A DNA stretch of 64,000 bases. Source: Nitriliruptorales bacterium. GTDB lineage: Bacteria > Actinomycetota > Nitriliruptoria > Nitriliruptorales > JAHWKO01. This document shows, in pieces, positions 9,401-13,950 of the stretch (within the stretch, counting starts at the first letter, position 1; each line of letters begins with the position of its first letter). The notes beneath the pieces were generated by a model. That model made no database searches, was not told the origin of the DNA, and saw only the letters and a list, made by a program, of their open reading frames with translations. Location of the stretch: contig JBHELG010000084.1 in the NCBI GenBank assembly GCA_046263195.1, positions 4,855 through 68,854 of the forward strand. Reading direction: 5' to 3'. The translations under genes were made by a program, and so were the position numbers.

Positions 9401-10837
9401 TCATGTCCGTTCGGCCTGCTCCTCGATCAGGGCCAGGACGCTGCGAACGTCGTGTTCGGTGGTGAGGAGGTTGCCCACCGCGAGTCGCAACGCGAAGCGT
9501 CCGTTGATCCGGGTGTGAGAGAGGTAGGCCTGACCGGTCCCATTCACCCGCTCGAGTAAGTCCGCATTGCGAAGGTCGGCCTCCGCGCCGGAGACCCGAT
9601 CGAACAAGGCCCGGAAGCAAACAGTCGAAAGTGTGGTCGGGGCGACCCGTTCGAAGAGAGGGCGGGAGTCGACCCACTGCGCGGCGAGACGGGCAAGTCG
9701 AACGTGCTCACGGATCCGCGCGGCGAGCCCCTCCCGTCCGAAGTAACGTATGACCATCCAGAGCTTCAGGGCCCGGAATCGCCGTCCGAGTTGCACGCCC
9801 CAGTGCATGTAGTCCTCGACGCCATCCTCCTGCGCAGGCAGATAGTCGGGACCAGCCCGAACGTTCGCTTCAGCGTCGCCGGGTCGCGCACGTAGAGCAC
9901 GCTGCAGTCGATCGGGGTGAAGAGCCATTTGTGAGGGTTGACGACGAGCGAGTCGGCCCTGTCGACGCCTTCGAGCACCCAGCGCAGCTCGGGGACGACC
10001 GCCGCCAATCCGCCATACGCCCCGTCGACGTGCAGCCAAAGGCCGTGCTCTCTGCACACCTCAGCTATGAGGGGCACTGGATCGATACTGGTCGTCGAGG
10101 TCGTACCCACGGTGGCGACCACTGCGAACGGATGCCAACCTGCGGCGATGTCCTCCTCCACAGCGAGGGCGAGTGCGGCCGTGTCCATCCTGAAGACGCC
10201 ATCCGTGGTGATCTTGCGCACGCTCTGCTGCCCGAGTCCGAGGGTGATGGCGGCCTTCTCGACTGACGAGTGCGCCTCCGTCGAGGCGTAGACGCGCAGG
10301 CGGGGGACCTCCGGGCGTCCGAGGAGCCCTCTGACCCGGACGTCGAATCCTGCCTGTTCCCGGGCGGCGGCGAGCGCAACGAGGGTCGACGTCGAAGCGG
10401 TGTCCATGATGACGCCTGCGAAGCCCTGCGGCAGGCCGAGTAGTTGCCGTAGCCAGTCGAGCACGGCCTGCTCGAGTTCGGTCGCCACAGGGGAGGTGCG
10501 CCACAGCATCCCGTTCACGTTGAGGGCGGCGGTAACGAGTTCCCCGATGATGCCCGGACCTGATGGCGAAGTAGGCGAAGAAGCGAGGGTGATTCCAGTG
10601 AGTCAACCCCGGCAGTACGACGGTGTCGAGGTCAGCGAGGATTCGCTGCATCGGCTCCCCCTGCTCGGGGGGGACAGCAGGGAGCCGGGCACGAACCTCC
10701 CCCGGTGCGACTGGGGCGAGGACCGGATAGTCACCCACGTCACTGAGATAGTCGCTGACCCAGTCCACAGCGGCGTGTCCCCAGCGGCGTAGCTCCTCGC
10801 TATCCATGTCGCCGAGATCAGGCGGCAGGCCCTGCAC
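9401..10837 (-). pseudogene. Group II PLP-dependent (aromatic amino acid-type) decarboxylase, two frameshifts
   Basis: Continuous homology split over three frames: THWNHPRFFAYF, then NGMLWRTSP..HVDGAYGG..NPHKW, then DYL..WGVQLGRRFRALKLW. Lesions at about 10560 and about 9849. GTG start at 10837 with an AGGAGA RBS. Confidence 0.87.
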
Positions 10838-10912
10838 GGAGTCTCCTGGTCGTGCCGCTATTACGGATTTGATCGCGGCCACTAGCCTGGCACCAGCGAC
10901 GAAGGGGAGGCG

Positions 10913-11140
10913 ATGGCGTTCTGCTTGCACTGCGGGGCGGACAACCCTGACGAGGCGCGCTACTGCCACAATTGCGGCGTCGAACTCGGGTTTGTCCAGA
11001 CCCCTACCCCACGTCCAGAGACGGTGGTCGAAGGGGTGCCAAACCCGGATGATCGCGCGCAACGTGCCGCGAGGCCGAAGCCGCAGGCAGGTGGCGGTGA
11101 TGCCGGAGCCACGGACCCGACAGAGGCCGAGGAGATCTGA
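10913..11140 (+). CDS. Small zinc-ribbon protein
   Basis: CLHCG..N..ARYCHNCG double CxxC; GGGGAGG RBS. Confidence 0.72.
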   Translation: MAFCLHCGADNPDEARYCHNCGVELGFVQTPTPRPETVVEGVPNPDDRAQRAARPKPQAGGGDAGATDPTEAEEI

Positions 11141-11233: not shown

Positions 11234-12040
11234 ATGCCTGTCCTCGTCACCGGCCCCGGCTCGACCCTTGGCCTGCAGGTCGCCCGGGTGCTTGCGGCCA
11301 CCGGGGGGGAGGTCCGCGCTTTCTGCGACCGCGACGCCTTCCTCCACGAGCTGCGACAGCTCGGGATCTTCTGCGCGGTAGGGTCGCTGCTCGACGAAGG
11401 CCATCTCGAGACGGCGATGGAGCAGGTGCATACCGTCGTCCATCTGCCGGTCGGGCCGCTCGCAGCCGACCCCGAACGGATCATCGACGAGGCAGCGACG
11501 GTGGTCGCTGCGGCAATCGGCGCCCAGGTGCGACGCATCGTGTGCCTGTCGGTCCCGGCCCCCGCCCTCGACGCACCCGACCGCCTGCGTCGAGCGGCCG
11601 CCGATGTGGAGCTGCTCGTCGCGGAGGCACCTTCTGCCACGGCCGTGATCAGAGCCTCGTTGGTCGACACCCCGGAACTGCGCGCCGCCCTTGCGCGCAC
11701 GCCGTTGCGTCGCGAGGCGCTCGAGTGCCTCGTCGCACCCCTGCGGCCGGAGGACCTGGCCGAGCTCATCCATTGGCTCGACGATCGCGACAACGTTGCG
11801 GGTGGCCATGACGTGTTCGCCGCCGACGGGCCCGAGGTGGTACCGCTGCGCATGCACCTACGAGCCCTCGGGCTCACCCCCCTGTCAGTGGTTGGCAGGG
11901 TCACCGAACGTCTCAGGTCCGGACCCGCACCGCTCCTCAGCGAGGTGTTCGCCACTCCCTGGGCGTCGGTCACGGACATCGTGAGCGCCTGGGAGGCGAG
12001 CGGCATCACACCACTCTCACCGCTCGAAGCCACAACGTGA
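11234..12040 (+). CDS. Atypical SDR / NAD(P)-binding Rossmann protein (NmrA/epimerase-like)
   Basis: N-terminal VLVTGPGSTLG, plus VHTVVHL and VRRIVCLS strands. Confidence 0.7.
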   Translation: MPVLVTGPGSTLGLQVARVLAATGGEVRAFCDRDAFLHELRQLGIFCAVGSLLDEGHLETAMEQVHTVVHLPVGPLAADPERIIDEAATVVAAAIGAQVRRIVCLSVPAPALDAPDRLRRAAADVELLVAEAPSATAVIRASLVDTPELRAALARTPLRREALECLVAPLRPEDLAELIHWLDDRDNVAGGHDVFAADGPEVVPLRMHLRALGLTPLSVVGRVTERLRSGPAPLLSEVFATPWASVTDIVSAWEASGITPLSPLEATT

Positions 12041-12120
12041 CCAGGCTCTGTCACGGTCGAAGATGCGGGCCGCTACTGCTCATGTCCTGTCTCGCCGCCA
12101 CAGTCGGCCCTGCTGATGCC

Positions 12121-12166
12121 GTCAACAAGGATTGACAAACACGTCTGGTCAACGTAGGTTGACAGC
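12121..12166 (+). promoter_or_regulatory. Leaderless sigmaA-type promoter with two GTCAAC-N4-GTTGAC operators
   Basis: TTGACA 12132-12137, 17 nt, TAGGTT 12155-12160, 6 nt, ATG 12167. Palindromes GTCAAC-AAGG-ATTGAC (12121-12136) and perfect GTCAAC-GTAG-GTTGAC (12148-12163). Confidence 0.75.
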
Positions 12167-12382
12167 ATGGCGGACACGAGAGAGCTGGCTCAGGCAGCCA
12201 CGAGTCGCGACCCAGCCGTCGGACTGCGAGCCGTTGCCTCCCTGCGGCTGCTTGTGGAGCAACTGCAAGTACTGCAGGTCGACAACGCGCGCAGCCACGG
12301 CTGGTCGTGGCAGCAGATCGCCGACGCTCTCGGCGTGAGTAGGCAGGCGGTTCACAAGCGCTACGCCAGGCGGAGGCTCTAG
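12167..12382 (+). CDS. Small helix-turn-helix protein
   Basis: ARSHGWSWQQIADALGVSRQAVHKRY HTH; family usually found upstream of Clp N-domain genes in Actinobacteria. Confidence 0.85.
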   Translation: MADTRELAQAATSRDPAVGLRAVASLRLLVEQLQVLQVDNARSHGWSWQQIADALGVSRQAVHKRYARRRL

Positions 12383-12467
12383 CGGCGGCAGACCACGCGC
12401 GGGGGCTTGCCTGTCGCGAGACGAGGTGGAGGCGAGGGACCGGTTACGAGGCCCGGGAGGCTAGGCG

Positions 12468-13091
12468 ATGTTCGAGCGGTTCACGCAGGCTGCTCGCCAT
12501 GCGGTTCGGCTTGCCCAACAGGAGGCCCGGGCACTCGGGCACGGCTACCTCGGGACGGAGCACCTTTTGCTGGGCCTGCTCGCCGAAGGCACGGGGGTCG
12601 CTGCACGGGTCCTTGCCGAACTGGGCGTCGATCCCGAGACGATGCGTAGCAGAGTGGTGGAGATCATCGGTCGCGGTCCGCCCACCAAACCTGATCGGGA
12701 AGCCCTGCGTTCCATCGGTATCGACATCGACCTGGTCCGCAGCAAGATCGAAGAGGCCTTCGGGCCCGGCGCCCTCGAGCGGACCTGGCCGGCCAAGTCC
12801 GACAGACGCGGATCCAGGTTGGGCCGGCTGATCGGTCGAAGAACCTGCCGGCAGTCGCAGGCTCCGGGGTACGTCCCGTTCACGCCGAGGGCGAAGAAGG
12901 TTCTCGAGCTCAGTCTGCGGGAGGCGCGCCAGCTCGGGCACAACTACCTCGGGACCGAGCACGTCCTTCTCGGTCTTCTCGCCGAGGGGGAAGGCGTCGC
13001 TGCCACGCTGCTCGAAGGATCCGGCGTGGACTTCTCGTTGGCAAGGGACAAGGTTCTCGAGGAGCTGGGGCCGAGCGCGGACGCTGGTTGA
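12468..13091 (+). CDS. Stand-alone Clp N-terminal repeat domain protein (no AAA+ module)
   Basis: MFERFT..A..EARALGHGYLGTEHLLLGLL and FTPRAKKVLELSLREARQLGHNYLGTEHVLLGLL. Confidence 0.9.
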   Translation: MFERFTQAARHAVRLAQQEARALGHGYLGTEHLLLGLLAEGTGVAARVLAELGVDPETMRSRVVEIIGRGPPTKPDREALRSIGIDIDLVRSKIEEAFGPGALERTWPAKSDRRGSRLGRLIGRRTCRQSQAPGYVPFTPRAKKVLELSLREARQLGHNYLGTEHVLLGLLAEGEGVAATLLEGSGVDFSLARDKVLEELGPSADAG

Positions 13092-13152
13092 ACGAGTTCG
13101 ACAGCTTTGTGCCGAAAAGAGCCATGGTGACGTCTTCCCACGACGGGCGCTT

Positions 13153-13950
13153 TCAACGCGCTCGGCGAACGAGCACGGCTGTGATGATGACGAGCAGGAC
13201 CCCGAAGGCCCGTGACAGCACCGTCGCGGGGAGGGCCAGCGCCACCTCGGCGCCCAGGAGCGAGCCGACAAGGCCTCCCGCACCGAGGCGCAGCCCGACA
13301 GACCAGTCCGTGTAACTGCGACGGCCATGCGTGGCCGCCCCGGCAAGCGCCGTCGGCACGATGACGGCGAGCGAAGTGCCTTCGGCCAAGTGCTGGCCAT
13401 AACCGAAGCCGATGACGAGCACGGGCACGACGATCGCGCCGCCGCCGATCCCGAGCAGGGCGGAAGCTGTCCCGCTCACCAAGCCGAGGAGTGCGTGAAG
13501 GCCGGCCTCTCCAGCTGCCATCAGCGGGGGCTGGCCTCCTGACGGGCCGATCGGGTCGGCGGGGCCGAAGACGAGCAGCCGCAACGCCATGACCGCGAGC
13601 AGCAACGCGAAGAGAAGCTGGAGACGCCGCTCGGAGACGCGCGGGAGAAGCGCCGCCCCGAGCTGCACGCCGGCCAGAGCACCGGCAGCGACCACGCCAG
13701 CAGCACCCCAGGCGACAGCGCCGCCGAGAGCGAAGCGCAGTGAGCCAGCGAGCGCGGGAACGGTGATCGCCACGAGCGAGGTGGCGTGCGCGACGTGCTG
13801 CGAGCGCCCGAGCACGAGCACGAGCAACGGGACGAGCAGCACGCCGCCACCGACCCCGAAGAGGCCTGCGAGAAGACCAGCGGCCAGCCCACCTCCCAGG
13901 GGCACGAGCCAGTCGCGCCATGCCGACCCTTCCATCGTGGGGCTCCTCAT
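13153..13950 (-). CDS. TauE/SafE sulfite exporter family membrane protein
   Basis: AGLFGVGGGVLLVP...AHATSL repeated as LLGIGGGAIVVP...AEGTSL; about 8 TM helices. Confidence 0.88.
   Translation of the reverse strand: MRSPTMEGSAWRDWLVPLGGGLAAGLLAGLFGVGGGVLLVPLLVLVLGRSQHVAHATSLVAITVPALAGSLRFALGGAVAWGAAGVVAAGALAGVQLGAALLPRVSERRLQLLFALLLAVMALRLLVFGPADPIGPSGGQPPLMAAGEAGLHALLGLVSGTASALLGIGGGAIVVPVLVIGFGYGQHLAEGTSLAVIVPTALAGAATHGRRSYTDWSVGLRLGAGGLVGSLLGAEVALALPATVLSRAFGVLLVIITAVLVRRAR

What the first reader, a model, noticed from the sequence alone, without database searches (positions are those of the whole stretch)
12121..13091. Split ClpC2-like module: autoregulated leaderless HTH gene plus stand-alone Clp N-domain
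Seen: TTGACA-17-TAGGTT-6-ATG gives a leaderless start. Two GTCAAC-N4-(G/A)TTGAC palindromes overlap the -35 and -10 boxes. The downstream protein has both Clp repeats with the RFT/GTEH and FTP/GTEH residues but no ATPase. Established: these residues bind phospho-arginine and cyclomarin-type antibiotics in ClpC; mycobacterial ClpC2 (HTH plus Clp repeat in one chain) represses its own gene and acts as a decoy. Inference: a two-gene version in which the HTH represses via these operators and the ClpN protein senses or sequesters pArg proteins or ClpC1-targeting drugs.
Basis: partly seen in the sequence, partly recalled or inferred. Interest (0 to 1): 0.62.

Follow-up and report, generated by a model that had tools for sequence, protein, structure and literature searches.

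The report
Two-gene ClpC2-like repressor and decoy
A small DNA-binding repressor gene and a separate gene for a free copy of the ClpC1 protease's docking domain form one self-repressed operon; it is a widespread two-gene relative of the mycobacterial ClpC2 stress and antibiotic sensor, and it points to which part of ClpC2 reads the DNA.

Summary

- **Operators:** two GTCAAC-N4-RTTGAC palindromes (12121-12136, 12148-12163) cover the -35 (TTGACA) and -10 (TAGGTT) boxes. These are the only two strict sites in the 2.88 Mb genome.
- **ORF1 (12167-12382):** its ATG lies 6 nt after the -10 box. It encodes a 71-aa helix-turn-helix (HTH) protein homologous to the ClpC2 (Rv2667) N-terminal module.
- **ORF2 (12468-13091):** it has its own GGGAGG ribosome-binding site. 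It is a free ClpC1 N-domain mimic with no ATPase and both phospho-arginine pockets intact.

The split is not a frameshift. Of the 80 closest HTH loci across Actinomycetota, 62 have the same two-gene order, and 49 of those 62 carry N4 operators. Fused ClpC2 genes carry the same half-sites with an N5 spacer. The two types coexist in one mycobacterium-like genome.

Three related genomes have the HTH and the operator but no free Clp-N protein. This argues that the HTH reads the operator, not the Clp domain.

Dual operators over a leaderless promoter are already published for clpC2. The two-gene N4 form appears in none of the ClpC2 papers I could read. DNA binding, ligand sensing and the transcription start remain untested.

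The parts
12121..12136 (.). Distal operator O1, GTCAACAAGGATTGAC (GTCAAC-N4-ATTGAC). Its right half-site supplies the -35 box.
   Evidence: An equivalent distal site lies 27-29 bp upstream of the proximal site in 37 related loci.
12132..12137 (+). -35 hexamer TTGACA
   Evidence: It is embedded in O1, and the operator right half-site TTGAC is fixed in all 37 distal sites.
12148..12163 (.). Proximal operator O2, GTCAACGTAGGTTGAC, a perfect palindrome. It ends 3 nt before the ATG.
   Evidence: The same position (start at -18 or -19 from the start codon) is seen in at least 13 loci whose alignment begins at residue 1.
12155..12160 (+). -10 hexamer TAGGTT (TANNNT type), 17 nt after the -35 and inside the spacer and right half of O2
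   Evidence: It is not recognised by the E. coli-consensus scanner.
12167..12382 (+). ORF1, a 71-aa HTH protein and the predicted autorepressor. The A of its ATG is the predicted transcription start (leaderless).
   Evidence: - HTH models match.
- The profile hits Rv2667 NTD 8ADA at E=3e-7 and RelI 9SDC at E=5e-11.
- The AlphaFold model has pLDDT 93.7, with helices 4-10, 16-43, 48-55 and 59-70.
- The C-terminal approximately 31-36 residues superpose on DNA-bound HTH domains.
12383..12467 (+). 85-nt intergenic spacer with the ribosome-binding site GGGAGG at 12455-12460, 7 nt before the ORF2 ATG
   Evidence: It folds no better than shuffled sequence (z=+1.5). It is the longest spacer among 60 related cassettes, which mostly have -1 to +9 nt.
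12468..13091 (+). ORF2, a 207-aa stand-alone Clp N-domain protein (ClpC1-NTD mimic). Residues about 72-132 form an insert between the two repeats.
   Evidence: - Clp_N matches twice and no ATPase is found.
- ClpC1 NTD scores E=3e-46, against 1e-20 for ClpC2 CTD.
- The model has pLDDT 87.8 and TM 0.94 to Mtb ClpC1 NTD.
- It is 61% identical to Mtb ClpC1 NTD over 141 aligned columns.

Best explanation
This is a self-repressed two-gene operon of the ClpC2 kind.

**ORF1, the repressor.** ORF1 is a 71-aa protein with a long dimerising helix and a C-terminal helix-turn-helix. It most likely binds as dimers to the two 16-bp palindromes GTCAAC-N4-RTTGAC. The palindromes sit on the -35 and -10 boxes of its own, probably leaderless, promoter, so binding would block RNA polymerase.

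**ORF2, the decoy.** ORF2 is made from the same transcript through its own ribosome-binding site. It is a free copy of the ClpC1 N-terminal docking domain. It keeps both phospho-arginine pockets and the residues that hold cyclomarin-type peptides. It should therefore bind the same ligands as ClpC1 and buffer them, as mycobacterial ClpC2 and ClpC3 are reported to do.

**The sensing step (least certain).** In fused ClpC2 the ligand breaks up oligomers held together by the Clp domain. Here the Clp domain is a separate chain. I propose that ORF2 docks on ORF1, possibly through its family-specific inter-repeat insert, and acts as a ligand-sensitive co-repressor.

**Shown here:**
- the sequence anatomy;
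- homology of both proteins;
- uniqueness of the operator in the genome;
- conservation of the operator-HTH-ClpN triad.

**Inferred:** DNA binding by ORF1, the leaderless start, ligand binding by ORF2, and any ORF1-ORF2 contact.
For: **Anatomy and chance**
- establish the features and show they are not chance matches.

**ORF1 belongs to the ClpC2 N-terminal module**
- The profile hits 8ADA at E=3e-7. The pairwise match to a ClpC2 ortholog is E=2e-8 over residues 37-84.
- The ClpC2 dimer salt-bridge pair D46-R57 aligns with E31 and the family-invariant R42 of ORF1.
- The ORF1 model is confident, with pLDDT 93.7.

**The published clpC2 promoter has the same logic**
- It has two pseudopalindromes on -35 and -10 and a leaderless mRNA.
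- A double operator binds about 24-fold tighter than a single one.

**The triad is conserved**
- Of the 80 best HTH loci, 62 have a ClpN gene directly downstream.
- Of those 62, 49 have at least one N4 operator and 35 have two.
- Of the 18 loci without ClpN, only 2 have operators.
- All 88 operator sites have an N4 spacer.

**Evidence that the HTH reads the operator**
- Genomes G012, G014 and G027 (96-98% complete) have the HTH gene with an N4 operator on its -10 box.
- In those genomes Clp_N is found only inside open frames of 869-1241 aa, the size of ClpC1 or ClpB.

**ORF2 as a ligand binder**
- It is 61% identical to Mtb ClpC1 NTD, with TM 0.94.
- It keeps F2, F138 (= ClpC1 F80), L150 (= L92), RFT/GTEH and FTP/GTEH.

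**This pair is the only ClpC2-like system here**
- Elsewhere in the genome only one ClpC1-type Clp_N match (contig C33) and one weak single-repeat match (C146) are found, and there is no fused ClpC2.
Against: - No experiment or transcript data bears on this locus.
- The E. coli-type promoter scan finds nothing.
- Published mutagenesis implicates ClpC2 CTD arginines R185/R189 in DNA binding. A contribution of the Clp domain to DNA contact therefore cannot be excluded.
- Nothing here shows that ORF1 and ORF2 touch each other.
- Most relatives couple the two genes translationally (-1 to +9 nt). This locus has an 85-nt spacer, so stoichiometric co-synthesis is less assured here.
- HTH-only relatives show that the repressor can exist without a ClpN partner. 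ClpN could therefore be mere cargo.
Confidence: 0.8

Rival explanations
1. Broken ClpC2: a once-fused clpC2 gene was split by a frameshift or an assembly error, so the two ORFs are pseudogene pieces.
For: - The genome is a 157-contig assembly.
- A nearby decarboxylase gene in the window is read in three overlapping frames.
- ORF1 and ORF2 lie in different frames, 85 nt apart.
Against: - The split layout recurs in 62 of 80 loci from many families, usually with overlapping stop and start codons.
- ORF2 starts with the family's invariant MFERF and has its own GGGAGG site.
- The split lineage has N4 operators and the fused lineage has N5.
- Both types coexist in one genome (G171).
- ClpC2 CTDs form their own clade.
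Confidence: 0.02
2. Simple autoregulated cargo: ORF1 is a plain negative autoregulator that only holds ORF2 at a steady low level. ORF2 never signals back, and any induction comes from turnover of ORF1 or from other regulators.
For: - HTH-plus-operator units exist without any ClpN.
- This locus is not translationally coupled.
- No ORF1-ORF2 contact has been demonstrated.
Against: - Operators and ClpN are strongly associated: 49 of 62 loci with ClpN have operators, against 2 of 18 without.
- Tight gene coupling is the rule in relatives.
- A conserved, confidently folded insert is found in the ClpN proteins of the two-gene cassettes aligned here (L80 and G84 invariant; pLDDT 92-95). It has no counterpart in Mtb ClpC1 NTD or in the ClpC2 sequences inspected.
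- In ClpC2 the Clp domain is the ligand switch.
Confidence: 0.15
3. Toxin-antitoxin-like pair: ORF1 is an antitoxin-type HTH and ORF2 is a growth inhibitor that blocks ClpC1 by competing for its substrates. ORF1 would neutralise ORF2.
For: - The best solved relative of ORF1 by sequence is RelI, the antitoxin of the M. tuberculosis RelS-RelI system (E=5e-11; PMC13284704).
- The layout matches typical TA operons: a small HTH gene first, overlapping genes, and palindromes on the promoter.
Against: - Strong induction of ClpC2 (300- to 600-fold) is protective in mycobacteria, not toxic.
- ORF2 has no toxin-like domain, only Clp_N.
- RelI-like pairs in relatives have a different partner gene.
Confidence: 0.03

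Closest known systems
Mycobacterial/actinobacterial ClpC2 (Rv2667; M. smegmatis and Streptomyces thermoviolaceus ClpC2). Sources: Taylor et al. 2023, PMC10030653; Anderson et al. 2026 preprint, 10.64898/2026.06.30.735635.
   Same: - The N-terminal module is homologous and includes the HTH.
- The partner is a ClpC1-NTD-like Clp-repeat domain.
- GTCAAC/GTTGAC inverted repeats sit on -35 and -10, usually as two sites.
- The last site ends 2-4 nt before the start codon, implying a leaderless mRNA.
- The gene product represses its own promoter.
   Different: - Here the HTH and the Clp domain are separate polypeptides from two ORFs.
- The operator spacer is N4 (16 bp), not N5 (17 bp).
- ORF2 keeps both pArg pockets and the ecumicin-critical Leu (L150). 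ClpC2 keeps one pocket and has Phe at that position.
- ORF2 is much closer to ClpC1 NTD than to ClpC2 CTD.
- ORF2 has a roughly 60-aa inter-repeat insert with no counterpart in Mtb ClpC1 NTD or in the ClpC2 sequences inspected.
ClpC3, a small Clp protein of mycobacteria (Hoi et al. 2023, known to me only through reviews PMC12678426 and PMC10864484)
   Same: - It is a stand-alone ClpC1-NTD-like protein restricted to actinobacteria.
- It binds cyclomarin and ecumicin and competes with ClpC1.
- It is induced together with ClpC2.
- A mycobacterium-like genome (G171) carries the two-gene cassette. Its ClpN has lost the first pArg motif (RPEH), matching the statement that ClpC3 lacks the pArg receptor.
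   Different: - Identity of ClpC3 with the cassette's ClpN is inferred. I could not read the primary paper.
- The reviews I could read mention no upstream HTH gene or operator.
- ORF2 here keeps both pArg motifs.
ClpC1 / ClpC N-terminal domain (PDB 3WDB, 3WDC, 5HBN)
   Same: - The fold matches (TM 0.94).
- It is 61% identical to Mtb ClpC1 NTD over 141 aligned columns.
- F2, F80, L92 and both pArg pockets are conserved.
   Different: - ORF2 has no AAA+ modules, so it cannot unfold or deliver substrates.
- It carries an extra helical insert and an Arg-rich loop between the repeats.
- It ends in a small-residue tail.
RelI antitoxin of the RelS-RelI system (Rv2663-Rv2664; PDB 9SDC; PMC13284704)
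   Same: It has the same small HTH family signature (SW..IG..LG[VI][ST].QA), and it is the best sequence match among solved structures.
   Different: Its partner gene is an RNase toxin, not a Clp N-domain. I did not compare operators.

Membership tests
ClpC2 (Rv2667-type fused autorepressor/sponge) | N-terminal dimerisation/HTH module homologous to Rv2667 residues 1-90 | tested here: met
   The profile of ORF1 relatives hits 8ADA at E=3e-7. BLASTP to a ClpC2 ortholog gives E=2e-8 at 38% identity over ClpC2 residues 37-84. The equivalents of D46 and R57 are E31 and R42.
ClpC2 (Rv2667-type fused autorepressor/sponge) | HTH module and Clp-repeat domain in one polypeptide of about 240-255 aa | tested here: not met
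   There are two ORFs in different frames, separated by a TAG stop and 85 nt, and the second has its own SD. The same split is found in 62 of 80 relatives.
ClpC2 (Rv2667-type fused autorepressor/sponge) | GTCAAC...GTTGAC inverted repeats overlapping -35 and -10 of a leaderless promoter | tested here: met
.
ClpC2 (Rv2667-type fused autorepressor/sponge) | Operator spacer of 5 nt (CGTCAAC-n5-GTTGACG) | tested here: not met
   Both sites here are N4. All 8 fused genes that carry an operator have N5. All 88 sites beside stand-alone HTH genes have N4.
ClpC2 (Rv2667-type fused autorepressor/sponge) | Ligand (pArg, cyclomarin) releases the repressor from DNA | not testable with these tools
   This needs EMSA or BLI with purified proteins.
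Two-gene HTH + ClpN cassette of Actinomycetota (informal; N4 operators; probably the ClpC3 type) | Stand-alone HTH gene of about 65-90 aa directly upstream of a stand-alone Clp_N gene on the same strand | tested here: met
   The family is defined.
Two-gene HTH + ClpN cassette of Actinomycetota (informal; N4 operators; probably the ClpC3 type) | One or two GTCAAC-N4-RTTGAC sites, 27-29 bp apart, upstream of the HTH gene | tested here: met
   The two sites start 27 bp apart.
Two-gene HTH + ClpN cassette of Actinomycetota (informal; N4 operators; probably the ClpC3 type) | ClpN has an MFERF start, the inter-repeat motif D..AL...G[IV]D...FGpGAL, and an Arg-rich loop | tested here: met
   ORF2 residues 76-102 read DREALRSIGIDIDLVRSKIEEAFGPGAL. 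L80 and G84 are invariant in 54 sequences.
Two-gene HTH + ClpN cassette of Actinomycetota (informal; N4 operators; probably the ClpC3 type) | Translational coupling (stop and start overlapping or within about 10 nt) | tested here: not met
   The spacer here is 85 nt, the largest of 60 measured. An own SD compensates.
ClpC/ClpC1 AAA+ unfoldase | Two AAA+ ATPase modules after the N-domain | tested here: not met
   ORF2 is 207 aa and matches Clp_N only. The real ClpC1 lies on contig C33.
RelS-RelI type toxin-antitoxin | HTH antitoxin paired with a RelS-type toxin gene | tested here: not met
   The HTH similarity is present, but the only partner gene is a Clp_N protein.

The most novel reading that the evidence does not exclude
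This cassette is a natural two-chain version of the ClpC2 sensor.

**Proposed roles.** The small HTH protein alone reads the GTCAAC operators. The free Clp N-domain protein supplies ligand sensing in trans, docking through its family-specific insert.

**Consequence for ClpC2.** The DNA-reading head of ClpC2 would be the unrecognised HTH at about residues 60-84. Its recognition helix (about residues 73-84) is missing from both published crystal constructs (4-72 and 94-252). The Clp-domain helix 174-189 proposed in 2023 would not be the reading head.

**Consequence for the spacer difference.** The one-base-pair difference (N4 against N5) would keep the two paralogous circuits from cross-talking when both sit in one genome.
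Probability: 0.35. Interest if true: 0.6.

Novelty: new variant of a known kind. Interest (0 to 1): 0.45.

Why it matters
ClpC1 is a leading antibacterial target in mycobacteria. ClpC2 and ClpC3 blunt ClpC1-directed drugs by soaking them up.

How ClpC2 recognises its operator, and how ligand binding is passed on to DNA release, are still open questions. The 2026 preprint says that further structural work is needed.

The two-gene form separates the DNA-binding part from the ligand-binding part. Each step could then be tested with simple proteins. The comparative data already point to the N-terminal HTH as the operator reader.

The family is also large: 148 of 401 sampled genomes of the phylum have a match to the HTH profile, a count that also includes fused ClpC2 and RelI-like HTH proteins. 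Phospho-arginine or ClpC1-ligand buffering may therefore be a general actinobacterial trait, not a mycobacterial speciality.

This particular locus is an ordinary member of that family.

Tried and rejected
1. **Frameshifted ClpC2:** rejected on conservation of the split and on the N4/N5 difference.
2. **E. coli-type promoter and terminator scan of 11900-13300:** no promoter and no terminator were found. This is uninformative for a TANNNT -10 box. The next gene is convergent.
3. **Regulatory RNA in the 85-nt spacer:** it folds no better than shuffles (z=+1.5).
4. **Fold search with the ORF1 model:** no significant PDB match (best E=0.86). Only generic HTH domains match, over 31-36 residues, and 8ADA is not among the top 50. 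Homology to ClpC2 therefore rests on sequence profiles.
5. **Single-sequence phmmer of ORF1 against PDB:** it missed 8ADA. Only the 8-sequence profile found it.
6. **Tree of Clp N-domains:** deep branches are unresolved (7 of 63 starred). It cannot say whether the free ClpN arose from ClpC1 or shares an origin with the ClpC2 CTD.
7. **Hoi et al. 2023 (ClpC3):** the paper is not held, so the ClpC3 link stays an inference.
9. **Complex prediction for ORF1+ORF2:** not possible.
10. **Other operator sites in the genome (a wider regulon):** there is no other N4 site. Two N6 look-alikes on C60 and C135 were not pursued.
Full report
**1. Observation**

- GTCAAC-AAGG-ATTGAC lies at 12121-12136.
- TTGACA lies at 12132-12137. 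A 17-nt spacer follows, then TAGGTT at 12155-12160.
- GTCAAC-GTAG-GTTGAC lies at 12148-12163.
- Six nucleotides follow the -10 box, then the ATG at 12167.

ORF1 is 12167-12382 (71 aa) and ORF2 is 12468-13091 (207 aa). GGGAGG at 12455-12460 lies 7 nt before the ORF2 ATG.

With one mismatch allowed, the palindrome pattern matches only these two places in the window. That is 4 strand-matches against 0.21 expected, and no shuffle out of 100 reaches 4. The strict pattern occurs nowhere else in the 2.88 Mb, 67% G+C assembly. The E. coli-consensus scanner calls no promoter or terminator in this stretch. TAGGTT is a TANNNT-type -10 box, not a TATAAT-like one.

**2. The two proteins**

*ORF1*
- It matches several HTH models (HTH_23, E=1.4e-6).
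- Its AlphaFold model is confident (pLDDT 93.7). It has a short helix, a long helix at 16-43, and an HTH at 48-55 and 59-70.
- The HTH part superposes on DNA-bound HTH domains, but no fold match is significant.

*ORF2*
- It matches only Clp_N, twice, with no ATPase.
- It scores far higher against ClpC1 N-domains (E=3e-46) than against ClpC2 C-terminal domains (E=1e-20).
- Its model superposes on Mtb ClpC1 NTD with TM 0.94.
- It is 61% identical to Mtb ClpC1 NTD over 141 aligned columns.
- It keeps R4-F5-T6 with G29-T30-E31-H32, and F138-T139-P140 with G162-T163-E164-H165.
- It also keeps F2, F138 (ClpC1 F80) and L150 (ClpC1 L92, which is Phe in ClpC2).
- Between the repeats it carries an insert. 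Two confident helices (77-82, 87-98) are followed by a disordered Arg-rich loop.

*Rest of the genome.* Elsewhere there is one ClpC1-type Clp_N match on contig C33 and one weak single-repeat match on C146. There is no fused ClpC2.

**3. What is published**

- Taylor et al. 2023 showed that ClpC2 represses its own promoter through CGTCAAC-n5-GTTGACG pseudopalindromes.
- These are often two sites overlapping -35 and -10, ending 1-2 nt before the ORF, so the mRNA is taken to be leaderless. Cyclomarin lifts the repression.
- The 2026 preprint adds three points. Phospho-arginine and rufomycin break up ClpC2 oligomers and release the DNA. Two operators bind about 24-fold tighter than one. One of the two pArg pockets is kept in ClpC2.
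- Neither text contains 'helix-turn-helix' or 'HTH'.
- Taylor et al. assign DNA recognition to helix 174-189 of the Clp domain.

**4. Homology of ORF1 to the ClpC2 N-terminal module**

- A profile of eight ORF1 relatives hits PDB 8ADA (Rv2667 residues 4-72) at E=3e-7. The alignment runs to the last residue of that chain, '...SWSDIGKSMGV'.
- In ClpC2 orthologs fetched here, the sequence continues 'TKQAAQKRF'. In the ORF1 model this is the recognition helix.
- That helix therefore lies outside both crystal constructs (4-72 and 94-252).
- Pfam finds no HTH in a canonical ClpC2.
- ORF1 aligns to ClpC2 residues 37-84 at 38% identity (E=2e-8). This puts E31 and the invariant R42 on the D46-R57 salt bridge of the ClpC2 dimer.
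- The best solved relative by sequence is RelI, the antitoxin of RelS-RelI.

**5. The split is a conserved family**

*Relatives of the window's genome*
- The same layout appears in a genome of the same family. L002 has a 70% identical HTH, two N4 operators, and overlapping genes.
- It also appears in two genomes of the order, L003 and L004.

*The 80 best loci from named genomes.* These include Streptomyces, Geodermatophilus, Blastococcus, Cellulosimicrobium, Isoptericola, Mumia, Nocardioides, Micromonosporaceae, Mycobacterium MAGs, Acidimicrobiia and Solirubrobacteraceae:

| Feature | Count |
|---|---|
| Stand-alone HTH gene | 80 of 80 |
| ClpN gene directly downstream | 62 of 80 |
| ClpN-positive loci with at least one N4 operator | 49 of 62 |
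| ClpN-positive loci with two N4 operators | 35 of 62 |
| ClpN-negative loci with operators | 2 of 18 |
| Operator sites with an N4 spacer | 88 of 88 |

- Paired operator sites start 27-29 bp apart.
- The gap between the two genes is mostly -1 to +9 nt. The 85 nt here is the extreme.
- In at least 13 loci the proximal site starts 18-19 nt before the start codon, as it does here.

**6. Fused against split**

- Eight fused genes that carry an operator all have N5 spacers. In the seven ClpC2 genes of 239-254 aa the two sites lie at about -48 and -20. L009 (235 aa) has a single site at -47.
- One mycobacterium-like genome (G171) carries both types. It has a split cassette with an N4 site and a 241-aa ClpC2 with N5 sites.
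- ClpC2 C-terminal domains form their own clade (SH-aLRT 93). Deeper branches are unresolved.

**7. Which part reads the operator?**

- G012, G014 and G027 are 96-98% complete. Each has the HTH gene with a single N4 operator on the -10 box of its own promoter.
- In those genomes Clp_N is found only inside open frames of 869-1241 aa, the size of ClpC1 or ClpB.
- The operator thus travels with the HTH, not with a free Clp domain.
- This is comparative inference. It does not exclude a supporting DNA contact by the Clp domain in ClpC2.

**8. Mechanism**

*Most likely*
- ORF1 dimers occupy both operators and block the promoter.
- ORF2 is co-transcribed. It binds ClpC1 ligands as a decoy.

*The sensing step is the weak point*
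- I favour ORF2 as a ligand-sensitive co-repressor that docks on ORF1.
- Reason 1: the operator and ClpN co-occur strongly.
- Reason 2: the genes are usually translationally coupled.
- Reason 3: the ClpN proteins of the two-gene cassettes aligned here share a conserved structured insert. L80 and G84 are among only eight invariant columns. The insert has no counterpart in Mtb ClpC1 NTD or in the ClpC2 sequences inspected.

*The rival.* ORF2 could be unsensed cargo. This is not excluded.

**9. Novelty**

- The promoter logic and the decoy idea are published for ClpC2.
- A free ClpC1-NTD-like protein (ClpC3) is published too. I could not read the primary paper.
- The ClpC2 papers and reviews I could read do not describe three things:
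  - the separate HTH gene;
  - the N4 operator class;
  - the implication for which part of ClpC2 reads DNA.
- Earlier notes of this scan reached the same reading in other genomes. I re-derived each point here independently.
- This locus is an ordinary member of the family. It has two local peculiarities: the long spacer, and an unusually ClpC1-like ORF2 that keeps both pArg pockets.

Noticed in passing
window 9401-11062, minus strand: A PLP-dependent decarboxylase-like gene is read in three overlapping ORFs in different frames (9401-10057, 9766-10518, 10061-11062). This suggests two frameshifts, from either a pseudogene or assembly errors in this 157-contig genome.
   Followed up: no
L002 (G005:C13), ClpN gene downstream of the 70%-identical HTH: In a genome of the same family, the ClpN partner carries a C-terminal ClpX-type C4 zinc finger (zf-C4_ClpX, E=1.7e-17, residues 219-255). 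This is a ClpC-docking domain fused to a ClpX-type adaptor-binding domain.
   Followed up: partly
alignment A3 (54 ClpN proteins); window 13080-13088 for ORF2's tail: All 54 ClpN proteins end in a small residue, and 31 end in Ala-Ala (9 in AS, 5 in AG, 4 in SA). ORF2 ends in AG. An Ala-Ala end resembles the ssrA-type degron, so proteolysis may set ClpN levels.
   Followed up: partly
L005, L006, L007 (G014, G027, G012; same order as the window's genome): A 71-82-aa HTH gene with a single GTCAAY-ATAY-GTTGAC operator on its -10 box, a leader of about 30 nt with an SD, and no ClpN gene downstream. Each genome has Clp_N only inside ClpC1/ClpB-sized frames.
   Followed up: partly
L008, L015, L016, L017 (relatives G021, G001, G022, G035): Weaker HTH relatives (90-91 aa, '...SW.KIG..LGTSGEAARQRY') form a separate conserved subfamily. 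In L008 and L015 they follow a 77-80-aa ORF in a toxin-antitoxin-like layout. They resemble the RelI branch, not the ClpC2 branch.
   Followed up: no
L102, L105 (ClpC2 orthologs) and PDB 8ADA: Pfam detects no HTH in canonical ClpC2. The crystallised N-terminal fragment (4-72) stops at 'MGV', just before the predicted recognition helix 'TKQAAQKRF'. This may explain why the HTH has gone unremarked.
   Followed up: yes
L107 (G310) and L122 (G163): Two further fused HTH+Clp_N proteins (275 and 263 aa) have no GTCAAC operator within about 400 nt upstream. They are a third architecture that I did not explore.
   Followed up: no
genome contigs C60:24906 and C135:12279: Two GTCAAT-N6-RTTGAC look-alikes are the only other near-matches to the operator in the genome. 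Their spacer is N6, and their context was not examined.
   Followed up: no
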